From Escherichia coli O127:H6 str. E2348/69 (GTDB lineage Bacteria > Pseudomonadota > Gammaproteobacteria > Enterobacterales > Enterobacteriaceae), in NCBI RefSeq assembly GCF_000026545.1, contig NC_011601.1: a stretch of 64,000 bases of DNA; one strand, 5' to 3'. Of this stretch, positions 32,801-34,307 are shown piece by piece (the first letter of the stretch is position 1; each line of letters opens with the position of its first letter). Made by a program: the position numbers.

Positions 32801-34307
32801 GAGCTAACCCGTGTGCGCCATAACGGCCTCGACGACAGTCCGCAGTTGCAGATTGATATCGACCAGCGTAAAGCTCAGGCGCTGGGCGTTGCTATCGACG
32901 ATATTAACGACACACTGCAAACCGCCTGGGGTTCGAGCTATGTGAATGACTTTATGGATCGCGGTCGCGTGAAGAAAGTCTATGTGCAGGCAGCTGCGCC
33001 GTATCGCATGCTGCCAGATGACATCAATCTCTGGTATGTCCGAAATAAAGATGGCGGCATGGTGCCCTTCTCTGCTTTCGCGACCTCACGCTGGGAGACA
33101 GGCTCGCCGCGTCTGGAACGCTATAACGGTTATTCTGCGGTTGAGATTGTTGGGGAAGCCGCACCGGGGGTCAGTACCGGTACGGCGATGGATATTATGG
33201 AATCGTTAGTGAAGCAGCTGCCAAACGGCTTTGGTCTGGAGTGGACGGCGATGTCGTATCAGGAGCGGCTTTCCGGCGCGCAGGCTCCGGCGCTGTACGC
33301 CATTTCCTTGCTGGTGGTATTCCTGTGTCTGGCGGCATTGTATGAAAGCTGGTCGGTGCCGTTCTCGGTAATGCTGGTCGTGCCGCTGGGGGTTATCGGC
33401 GCGCTGCTGGCAACCTGGATGCGCGGGCTGGAAAACGATGTTTACTTCCAGGTGGGTCTGTTAACGGTCATTGGTTTATCGGCGAAAAACGCTATCCTGA
33501 TCGTCGAGTTTGCTAACGAGATGAACCAAAAAGGCCACGACCTGTTTGAAGCGACGCTCCACGCCTGCCGTCAGCGTTTACGCCCGATTCTGATGACCTC
33601 GCTGGCATTTATCTTCGGCGTATTGCCAATGGCAACCAGCACAGGTGCCGGTTCCGGTGGTCTGCATGCGGTGGGTACTGGCGTAATGGGCGGGATGATT
33701 TCGGCCACTATTCTGGCTATTTACTTCGTGCCGCTGTTCTTTGTGCTGGTGCGCCGCCGCTTCCCGCTGAAGCCGCGCCCGGAATAAGCAATAAAAAAGG
33801 CGACATGCCAATGTGTCGCCCTTTTCAACTTTCCGATTAAGAACCTGCTCAGCGGGTTCTTGCTGTTTGTACTTTGTCTCAGGAATTACTTACGAAGCAT
33901 AACTTCGATAAAGTCTTTCCAGTTCCCCAGTTCACGTTCAATCATAACAACCTCTCTTATAATTATGGGTATTCTACGGAAACAATATACCGTGGTGAAG
34001 CTAATTTACTCGATTGCTGTGATGACTACCTCCGGGGGACAAACCTTATGTAAATACTATGGTCCTGCGGTGATGATTTGTATGTGATGCACCGCAACAT
34101 TTCGAGATATTCATACGGCATCTAATACTGATTTAATTCTGGTTAAAATACAGACAGATAACAAGATGAATATTCTTAATGTTTACGTTAAAAATGTTTA
34201 ATGTTATTTAATGGTTGTTAATTTGAATACTTCGATAATGTTATATTTCCTGATAATCATTTGCAGGCAAAATGTTTTCACCTTTAAATGAGTATTTATT
34301 CTCATAA

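What the first reader, a model, noticed from the sequence alone, without database searches (positions are those of the whole stretch)
33886..33945. Tiny ORF ypfM (19 aa), not in the ORF track
A minus-strand ORF with a good RBS encodes MIERELGNWKDFIEVMLRK, matching the K-12 small protein YpfM from memory. It falls below the ORF-track length cutoff and is easy to miss.
Basis: partly seen in the sequence, partly recalled or inferred. Interest (0 to 1): 0.25.

Follow-up and report, generated by a model that had tools for sequence, protein, structure and literature searches.

The report
Known 19-residue small protein gene ypfM
This is ypfM, an already annotated and experimentally detected 19-amino-acid E. 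coli protein with its own promoter and terminator; it is real and strongly conserved, but it is not a new discovery and its function is still unknown.

Summary
Window 33886..33945 (minus strand) encodes MIERELGNWKDFIEVMLRK plus a stop, 5 nt downstream of an AAGAGAGG Shine-Dalgarno sequence. It is ypfM (K-12 b4606), base-for-base identical to the K-12 ORF. It is annotated in RefSeq E. coli genomes and scores 59.2 bits against the NCBIfam equivalog NF033843 (cut-off 33).

An ORF with an SD is not rare by chance; conservation is the evidence. A 19-codon ORF with the same start and stop lies upstream of yffB in 70 of 80 Enterobacterales genomes. Variation is mostly at third codon positions, pN/pS is about 0.10, and the stop codon switches between TAA, TGA and TAG. 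Published top-down mass spectrometry detected the intact peptide.

It is a stand-alone transcription unit: TTCACC-17-TAGAAT promoter, short A-rich leader, ORF, unconserved 3' UTR spacer, and a covarying terminator shared with convergent acrD. Its 3' part is the Rfam entry STnc250, an Hfq-associated small mRNA in Salmonella.

The peptide looks like a soluble, net-neutral amphipathic helix. Invariant residues sit on the hydrophobic face, so it probably docks onto a partner protein; this is inferred.

Unexplained: unusually low synonymous divergence, and a transcript-length mismatch with the Salmonella Northern. Already known; low interest.

The parts
33886..33945 (-). ypfM coding sequence: 19 codons plus TAA stop (MIERELGNWKDFIEVMLRK)
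   Evidence: Translation. K-12 b4606 has an identical sequence. NCBIfam NF033843 scores 59.2 bits against a cut-off of 33. The ORF is conserved in 70 of 80 syntenic loci with pN/pS about 0.10.
33946..33964 (-). Short A-rich 5' leader with the Shine-Dalgarno sequence AAGAGAGG (33958..33951). The 5' end at about 33964 is inferred from the -10 position, not measured.
   Evidence: Sequence. Identity across genera is near 90-100% for ATAATAAGAGAGG.
33971..33999 (-). Sigma-70-type promoter TTCACC-17-TAGAAT (-35 at 33999..33994, -10 at 33976..33971)
   Evidence: Consensus scan. Both hexamers are conserved across genera while the 17-nt spacer is not, and the spacing is fixed. Shimada 2014 assigns the same hexamers to ypfM at an RpoD genomic-SELEX peak (PMC3946193).
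34003..34025 (-). Conserved element upstream of the -35 (CATCACAGCAATCGAGTAAAT). In other genera it reads AATCAcAGcAATyGGTTAAAT and is sometimes a perfect dyad. It may be a regulator site or an UP element.
   Evidence: Conservation profile and alignment. No regulator was identified.
33828..33885 (-). 3' UTR spacer, not conserved between genera. In Escherichia it contains a hairpin AAGAACCCGCTGAGCAGGTTCTT (33862..33838).
   Evidence: Conservation drops to about 0-30% right after the stop codon. Identity to L002 and L003 is 56-62%. The hairpin appears in the RNA fold and in the scan.
33788..33827 (-). Intrinsic terminator (A-run, GGGCGAC...GTCGCC stem, T6), placed 5 nt beyond the stop codon of convergent acrD, so it probably works in both directions
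   Evidence: Scan and fold. A perfect hairpin plus T-run is found in 58-59 of the 71 sequences scanned (70 loci plus the window), with compensatory stem variants. It matches the terminator stem of Rfam RF01409.

Best explanation
The feature is the chromosomal core gene ypfM. It is a monocistronic small mRNA, about 175 nt if it starts at the conserved proximal promoter. A sigma-70 promoter (TTCACC-17-TAGAAT) drives it, and it ends at an intrinsic terminator shared with the convergent acrD gene. It is translated from a strong SD into a 19-residue peptide. Shown here: the ORF, its annotation, its family membership, purifying selection on the peptide, and the promoter and terminator anatomy. Taken from the literature: the peptide exists in cells, and the Salmonella mRNA (STnc250) is a stable, growth-phase-dependent RNA that is modestly enriched with Hfq. 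Inferred: the peptide is a soluble, net-neutral amphipathic alpha-helix. Its invariant hydrophobic face (I2, L6, W9, F12, I13, M16, L17) would be the working surface, so it most likely acts, like most characterised bacterial microproteins, by docking onto and modulating a larger protein. The partner is unknown. I rate identity at about 0.98 and the protein-docking mechanism at about 0.4-0.5.
For: Identity. The 126-nt core is at least 99% identical in 5,424 of 5,425 matching E. coli records. Coding selection: a 19-aa ORF with fixed start and stop in 70 of 80 syntenic loci, including Dickeya and [Erwinia] mediterraneensis. Variable columns number 7, 4 and 15 by codon position, the stop codon switches between TAA, TGA and TAG, and conservation collapses right after the stop. 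pN/pS is 0.10, against 0.23 for yffB. Protein existence: top-down MS, DIA and PRM (PMC12529367). Transcription unit: plus the Salmonella Northern (PMC2515195) and its high RNA-seq abundance in S. Typhi (PMC2704369). Amphipathic helix: hydrophobic moment 0.546, reached by 3% of shuffles; mean hydrophobicity -0.12; 4 basic and 4 acidic residues. Of 8 variable positions, 7 lie on the polar arc; of 11 invariant positions, 10 lie on the hydrophobic arc (Fisher p = 0.0012).
Against: No partner, phenotype or structure is known. K-12 still calls the protein 'uncharacterized', and a 2025 review calls ypfM 'of unknown function' (PMC12093975). The helix is inferred from sequence periodicity only, because the structure predictor refuses peptides under 30 aa. 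Synonymous divergence is lower than the peptide alone requires, which leaves room for a function at the RNA level. The transcript predicted from the proximal promoter in Salmonella (about 147 nt) is shorter than the ~220 nt on the published Northern.
Confidence: 0.6

Rival explanations
1. Dual-function RNA. As well as encoding YpfM, the ypfM/STnc250 transcript, or a processed 3' fragment of it, works as an Hfq-associated base-pairing RNA or sponge, in the way SgrS/SgrT or AzuCR/AzuC do.
For: Salmonella STnc250 was enriched 4-fold in Hfq co-IP, and the recovered cDNAs covered only the 3' 94 nt (PMC2515195). That Rfam model starts inside the ORF at codon 14. The terminator has a U6 tail and the leader is A-rich, AAUAAUAAGAGA-like. 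Pooled pS is 0.374 against a mean of 0.673 for 457 19-codon windows of yffB and dapE, the 4th percentile. There are no substitutions in the 120-nt promoter, leader and ORF versus L002, and one versus L003, while the flanking genes are 83-90% identical. The non-optimal codons GGG (Gly7) and CTT (Leu17) are nearly fixed.
Against: The only non-coding stretch long enough to hold a seed, the 3' UTR spacer, is not conserved between genera. The ORF-internal hairpin of the Rfam model shows no compensatory changes: 12 of 53 distinct ORFs carry an A-G mismatch. The first 19 codons of dapE have an equally low pS (0.341), so constraint around a translation start plus selection on a highly expressed mRNA can explain the signal. 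A 4-fold enrichment from 6 versus 24 reads is weak. The held papers name no target.
Confidence: 0.15
2. The peptide is a peripheral membrane-binding amphipathic helix that acts at the inner-membrane surface, possibly on the neighbouring RND pump AcrD, rather than on a soluble protein.
For: It has a strong hydrophobic moment, with Trp and Phe on the apolar face and a basic C-terminus, RK. ypfM and acrD are adjacent in 68 of the 80 loci surveyed. From general knowledge, another E. coli small protein, AcrZ, binds the RND pump AcrB.
Against: The net charge is zero with four acidic residues, which is unfavourable for binding anionic membranes. There is no transmembrane segment. The adjacency is not strict: Dickeya has ypfM without an adjacent acrD, and Erwinia endophytica has acrD without ypfM. 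The genes converge and are not co-transcribed. Conserved synteny of core genes is normal in this family of bacteria.
Confidence: 0.2
3. The locus is a purely non-coding sRNA (STnc250), and the ORF is fortuitous.
For: Rfam files RF01409 as 'Gene; sRNA', an Hfq-binding RNA. An ORF with an SD of this size is common by chance.
Against: The substitution pattern follows codon periodicity, the ORF boundaries are fixed, stop codons interchange, and pN/pS is 0.10. The intact peptide was detected by MS. Sittka et al. themselves reclassified STnc250 as a small mRNA.
Confidence: 0.01
4. The ORF is a leader peptide or cis-acting regulatory uORF that controls a downstream gene, or it controls acrD through convergent transcription.
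For: The ORF is very short with a strong SD. The terminator lies 5 nt from the acrD stop codon.
Against: No gene follows on the same strand. A conserved intrinsic terminator ends the transcript and the next gene is convergent. A leader peptide would not need 11 of 19 residues invariant across genera on one helical face.
Confidence: 0.03

Closest known systems
YpfM of E. coli K-12 (b4606; NCBIfam NF033843 small_YpfM)
   Same: The ORF is identical in amino-acid and nucleotide sequence, sits in the same acrD / ypfM / yffB-dapE context, and has the same promoter hexamers and terminator.
   Different: Nothing within the ORF. There are 8 substitutions in about 550 nt of the surrounding region. One falls in the conserved upstream element (ATCACAG in the window, ATCGCAG in K-12) and one in the terminator A-run.
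STnc250 (Rfam RF01409), the Hfq-associated small mRNA of Salmonella
   Same: It is the orthologous locus. The model spans the last 21 nt of the ypfM ORF, the 3' UTR and the terminator. A Salmonella copy scores 125 bits. The window matches both ends of the model, the ORF-end hairpin and the terminator.
   Different: The window scores only 35 bits, below the gathering score of 42, because the E. coli 3' UTR spacer is longer (37 versus 13 unaligned nt) and unrelated in sequence. Rfam's 'sRNA' label is outdated, since the RNA is an mRNA.
Dual-function small RNAs that encode small proteins (SgrS/SgrT, AzuCR/AzuC, Spot 42/SpfP), from general knowledge
   Same: A short stand-alone transcript with an intrinsic terminator and U-tail, reported Hfq association, and a translated small ORF.
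   Different: ypfM has no demonstrated base-pairing target and no conserved non-coding seed. Here the ORF, not a flanking region, is the conserved part.
AcrZ, the small protein partner of the RND pump AcrB, from general knowledge
   Same: A small enterobacterial protein. The genomic link to an RND pump (acrD) is suggestive.
   Different: AcrZ is a 49-aa transmembrane helix. YpfM is 19 aa, has 8 charged residues and no hydrophobic span. The ypfM-acrD adjacency is not strict.

Membership tests
NCBIfam NF033843 small_YpfM (equivalog) | HMM score at or above the curated cut-off (33 bits) over the full-length profile | tested here: met
   59.2 bits, E = 2.4e-16, profile positions 1-19 of 19. The query carried one extra N-terminal Val because the tool needs at least 20 aa.
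NCBIfam NF033843 small_YpfM (equivalog) | A 19-residue stand-alone ORF in the acrD / yffB-dapE interval of Enterobacteriaceae | tested here: met
   The same arrangement is found in 68 of the 80 loci surveyed.
NCBIfam NF033843 small_YpfM (equivalog) | The peptide is actually translated | not testable with these tools
   Literature only: top-down MS, DIA and PRM detection in E. coli (PMC12529367). The coding-type substitution pattern supports it indirectly.
Rfam RF01409 STnc250 | Covariance-model score at or above the gathering score (42 bits) | tested here: not met
   The window scores 35 bits, E = 2.8e-5. The Salmonella orthologue scores 125.3 bits. The shortfall comes from the divergent 3' UTR spacer, so the window is a homologue by synteny and shared ends, but it falls below the family threshold.
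Hfq-dependent base-pairing sRNA / dual-function RNA | Intrinsic terminator with a poly-U tail (Hfq proximal-face module) | tested here: met
   GC stem plus T6, conserved with compensatory changes.
Hfq-dependent base-pairing sRNA / dual-function RNA | A conserved single-stranded seed region outside the coding constraint | tested here: not met
   The 3' UTR spacer has about 0-30% column identity across genera, and 56-62% even within Escherichia.
Hfq-dependent base-pairing sRNA / dual-function RNA | Hfq binding and regulation of a target RNA | not testable with these tools
   The only data are a 4-fold co-IP enrichment in Salmonella, 6 versus 24 reads (PMC2515195). No target is reported in the held papers.
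Leader peptide / regulatory uORF | A downstream gene on the same transcript whose expression depends on translation of the ORF | tested here: not met
   A terminator follows the ORF and the next gene (acrD) is convergent.
Small membrane proteins / type I toxins | A hydrophobic transmembrane segment of about 18 or more residues | tested here: not met
   Mean Eisenberg hydrophobicity is -0.12, and 8 of 19 residues are charged.

The most novel reading that the evidence does not exclude
The ypfM transcript has two functions. The near-absolute nucleotide conservation of its leader and ORF reflects a second, RNA-level role, either Hfq-dependent base-pairing or sponging by the full mRNA or by a processed 3' fragment (the 94-nt species recovered with Hfq in Salmonella). 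That conservation includes non-optimal GGG and CTT codons, and there are no substitutions versus a divergent Escherichia genome whose flanking genes are 12-15% diverged. The 19-aa peptide would be only half of the story.
Probability: 0.15. Interest if true: 0.45.

Novelty: already known. Interest (0 to 1): 0.1.

Why it matters
For the scan, it shows that the ORF track's length cut-off hides real genes, and that this one was correctly recalled. Biologically, YpfM is among the shortest proteins shown to exist in E. coli and one of the most readily detected by MS. It is invariant across thousands of strains and conserved across Enterobacterales, yet it has no known function. This analysis adds three small, testable pointers: the conserved surface is one hydrophobic helical face, synonymous sites are unusually constrained, and a conserved element lies upstream of the promoter. 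None of these changes the verdict that the finding is an already known gene.

Tried and rejected
(1) The large protein databases could not be searched. The search for homologous proteins refuses queries under 40 aa, the listing of cluster members needs at least 20 aa, and the structure predictor and representative search need at least 30 aa. The family's range therefore rests on the synteny survey of 80 genomes.

(2) Pfam and PDB sequence searches found nothing.

(3) The primary small-protein papers (Hemm 2008, Hemm 2010, EcoSal 2020) are not held. SPA-tag and stress-response data could not be cited and are left out.

(4) A link to mobile elements was rejected. There is no real phage hit. The 'plasmid' hits are multi-megabase records (evidently chromosomes labelled as plasmids) or records carrying what look like chromosomal fragments (the one I opened, CP150497.1, holds acrD-ypfM-yffB).

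(5) The ORF-internal hairpin in the Rfam model was considered as an RNA structural constraint and rejected. Its changes are not compensatory, and the paired bases are fixed by codons.

(6) The RpoS SELEX peak listed next to ypfM (PMC5493296) is listed under acrD, with ypfM only as the neighbouring gene, so I did not use it as evidence for a ypfM promoter.

(7) I compared the upstream element by eye with marbox, CRP and MntR consensus sequences recalled from memory. None fitted convincingly, so no regulator is claimed.

(8) A strict functional link to acrD was rejected, because each gene occurs without the other in some genomes.

Full report
OBSERVATION. The minus strand of window 33886..33945 translates to MIERELGNWKDFIEVMLRK followed by TAA. 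AAGAGAGG lies at 33958..33951, 5 nt upstream of the ATG. The ORF is missing from the mechanical ORF list only because it has 19 codons and the list starts at 20 aa. Its neighbours are acrD (30674..33787, +, convergent), yffB (34326..34682, +, divergent) and dapE (34686..35813, +). An ORF with an SD is not significant on its own. Block-shuffled copies of the window contain about 35 ATG ORFs of 15-30 codons with a 4-nt SD core, and the real window has 6. The case therefore rests on comparative and published evidence.

IDENTITY. The 631-nt region matches 5,425 of 5,426 complete E. coli genomes. It is 100% identical to strains such as 536 and E2348/69, and RefSeq annotates 'ypfM: protein YpfM' (WP_001386977.1) under the match. 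K-12 MG1655 carries b4606 ypfM, 'uncharacterized protein YpfM', at the same position. Its ORF, leader and promoter hexamers are identical to the window. The peptide scores 59.2 bits against the NCBIfam equivalog NF033843 small_YpfM, cut-off 33, over the whole 19-position profile (one extra upstream residue was added to meet the tool's 20-aa minimum). Pfam and the PDB hold nothing similar.

IS IT REALLY CODING? I used the neighbour YffB as an anchor and fetched 80 loci from different Enterobacterales species.
- 70 of them carry a 19-codon ORF with the same start and stop on the opposite strand upstream of yffB. This includes distant genera such as Dickeya and [Erwinia] mediterraneensis.
- One more, a Lelliottia, has the ORF with an altered C-terminus.
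- Among 53 distinct ORF sequences, variable columns number 7, 4 and 15 at codon positions 1, 2 and 3. The stop codon interchanges between TAA, TGA and TAG at a fixed position, and conservation collapses right after it.
- pN/pS against the window is 0.10, compared with 0.23 for yffB.
- Eleven of 19 residues are invariant.
- Published proteomics detected the intact formylated peptide by top-down MS with 100% coverage, and also by DIA and PRM (PMC12529367).
A purely non-coding reading is excluded.

ANATOMY OF THE UNIT. A sigma-70-like promoter, TTCACC-17-TAGAAT (33999..33971), is the only promoter-like site in the interval. Across genera both hexamers are conserved at fixed spacing while the spacer varies, which is the signature of a real promoter. 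Shimada et al. assigned the same hexamers to ypfM at an RpoD genomic-SELEX peak (PMC3946193).

Downstream come a leader of about 19 nt that is A-rich and nearly invariant (ATAATAAGAGAGG), the ORF, and a 3' UTR spacer of about 58 nt. The spacer is essentially unconserved between genera and holds a hairpin in Escherichia (33862..33838). The unit ends at an intrinsic terminator (33827..33788; A-run, GGGCGAC/GTCGCC stem, T6).

The terminator is found as a perfect hairpin plus T-run in 58-59 of the 71 sequences scanned (70 loci plus the window). Its stem shows compensatory variants: GGCGAC/GTCGCC, GGCGGC/GCCGCC, GCGCC/GGCGC, GGCAGCC/GGCTGCC and GCAGCAATC/GATTGCTGC. It lies 5 nt from the acrD stop codon and has an A-run on one side and a T-run on the other, so it probably terminates both convergent genes.

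Rfam RF01409 (STnc250, 'Hfq binding RNA') matches 33787..33906 at 35 bits, below its gathering score of 42. A Salmonella copy of the locus scores 125 bits, and that hit begins inside the ypfM ORF. STnc250 is therefore the 3' part of the ypfM mRNA. Sittka et al. reached the same conclusion, reporting a stable, growth-phase-dependent RNA of ~220 nt that was 4-fold enriched with Hfq (PMC2515195). It was also the most abundant of the mapped Hfq-list RNAs in S. Typhi RNA-seq (PMC2704369).

HOW IT MOST LIKELY WORKS. The published function is unknown. The peptide is not hydrophobic (mean -0.12) and is net neutral (4 basic, 4 acidic residues). Its helical hydrophobic moment is 0.546, which only 3% of shuffles reach. 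On a helical wheel, 7 of the 8 variable positions lie on the polar arc and 10 of the 11 invariant positions lie on the hydrophobic arc (Fisher p = 0.0012). The selected surface is therefore one apolar face of a short helix (I2, L6, W9, F12, I13, M16, L17).

My best inference, at about 0.4-0.5, is a cytosolic microprotein that docks onto a larger protein through that face. A peripheral-membrane variant, possibly involving AcrD, is less likely, at about 0.2. The charge is neutral, and ypfM and acrD can each occur without the other. A leader-peptide role is excluded by the terminator and by the convergent downstream gene.

WHAT REMAINS ODD.
(i) Synonymous sites are unusually quiet. Pooled pS is 0.374 against a mean of 0.673 for 457 19-codon windows of yffB and dapE in the same 50 genomes, which puts ypfM at the 4th percentile. 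The 120-nt promoter, leader and ORF has no substitutions versus a divergent Escherichia genome (L002) and one versus E. albertii (L003). In those same genomes the acrD 3' end is 83-85% identical, yffB 88-90%, and the 3' UTR spacer 56-62%. The non-optimal codons GGG and CTT are nearly fixed. Within E. coli, the 126-nt core is at least 99% identical in 5,424 of 5,425 matching records, while the wider 631-nt region is 95-99% identical in most. Together with the Hfq association, this keeps a dual-function-RNA reading alive, at about 0.15. Three points count against it: the first 19 codons of dapE are equally constrained (0.341), the only free non-coding stretch is unconserved, and the ORF-internal hairpin shows no compensatory change.
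(ii) From the conserved proximal promoter, the Salmonella transcript should be about 147 nt, not ~220 nt. A distal start after TAGTAATAT (E. coli TAGTAT, 34059..34054) would fit, but it is not conserved more widely.
(iii) A conserved, partly dyad-symmetric element lies upstream of the -35 (34003..34025), and no regulator has been assigned to it.

VERDICT. The feature is the already known gene ypfM, so novelty is nil and interest is low. The comparative analysis adds modest, testable hints about the peptide's working surface and about a possible constraint at the RNA level.

Noticed in passing
window 34003-34025 (- strand): A conserved element lies just upstream of the ypfM -35 (CATCACAGCAATCGAGTAAAT). 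In other genera it reads AATCAcAGcAATyGGTTAAAT and is sometimes a perfect dyad (ATCGCAGCGAT, ATCACAGTGAT). One of the few differences between K-12 and the window falls inside it. No regulator was identified.
   Followed up: partly
window 33788-33827: The ypfM terminator lies 5 nt past the acrD stop codon, with an A-run on one side and a T-run on the other. It looks like a bidirectional terminator shared by the two convergent genes.
   Followed up: partly
L084:560-840 (Salmonella) and window 34047-34060: From the conserved proximal promoter, the Salmonella ypfM transcript should be about 147 nt, but the published Northern reports ~220 nt. A possible distal -10 (TAGTAATAT in Salmonella, TAGTAT in E. 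coli) would give about 222 nt.
   Followed up: partly
L002 (NZ_JAATUR010000003.1, labelled E. coli) versus window 33301-34682: This genome is labelled E. coli, but it is only 79-88% identical to the window in acrD, yffB and the intergenic region, while ypfM and its promoter are 100% identical. It is probably a divergent or cryptic Escherichia lineage.
   Followed up: partly
L028 (Lelliottia nimipressuralis), about 390 nt upstream of yffB: Here the ypfM ORF reads ...DMLRNDLQ instead of ...MLRK*. This looks like a 1-nt deletion at the stop codon that extends the peptide, either a real variant or an assembly error.
   Followed up: no
H40, NZ_CP148398.1 (E. coli Z1323HEC0009) 1676649-1676700: Only 41% of the 126-nt ypfM core aligns in this strain. 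The gene may be interrupted, for example by an insertion.
   Followed up: no
H42-H44, H49 (PLSDB 'plasmids' of 4.8-5.4 Mb) and L084 (CP150497.1, IncFIB, 218 kb): Several records in the plasmid collection are multi-megabase and look like whole chromosomes labelled as plasmids. One 218-kb Salmonella Infantis IncFIB record carries what looks like the chromosomal acrD-ypfM-yffB segment.
   Followed up: no
window 33946-34325 (ypfM-yffB intergenic region): This is a 380-nt AT-rich divergent intergenic region. Its length varies widely across genera: the distance from the ypfM start to the yffB start ranges from 203 to 1,045 nt. Shimada 2014 flags it as H-NS-associated, and a MarA ChIP peak was reported there in Salmonella.
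   Followed up: no
window 33838-33862: The 3' UTR hairpin AAGAACCCGCTGAGCAGGTTCTT is also scored as a terminator-like site on the + strand. It is conserved between the window and K-12, but its sequence is not conserved in other genera.
   Followed up: partly
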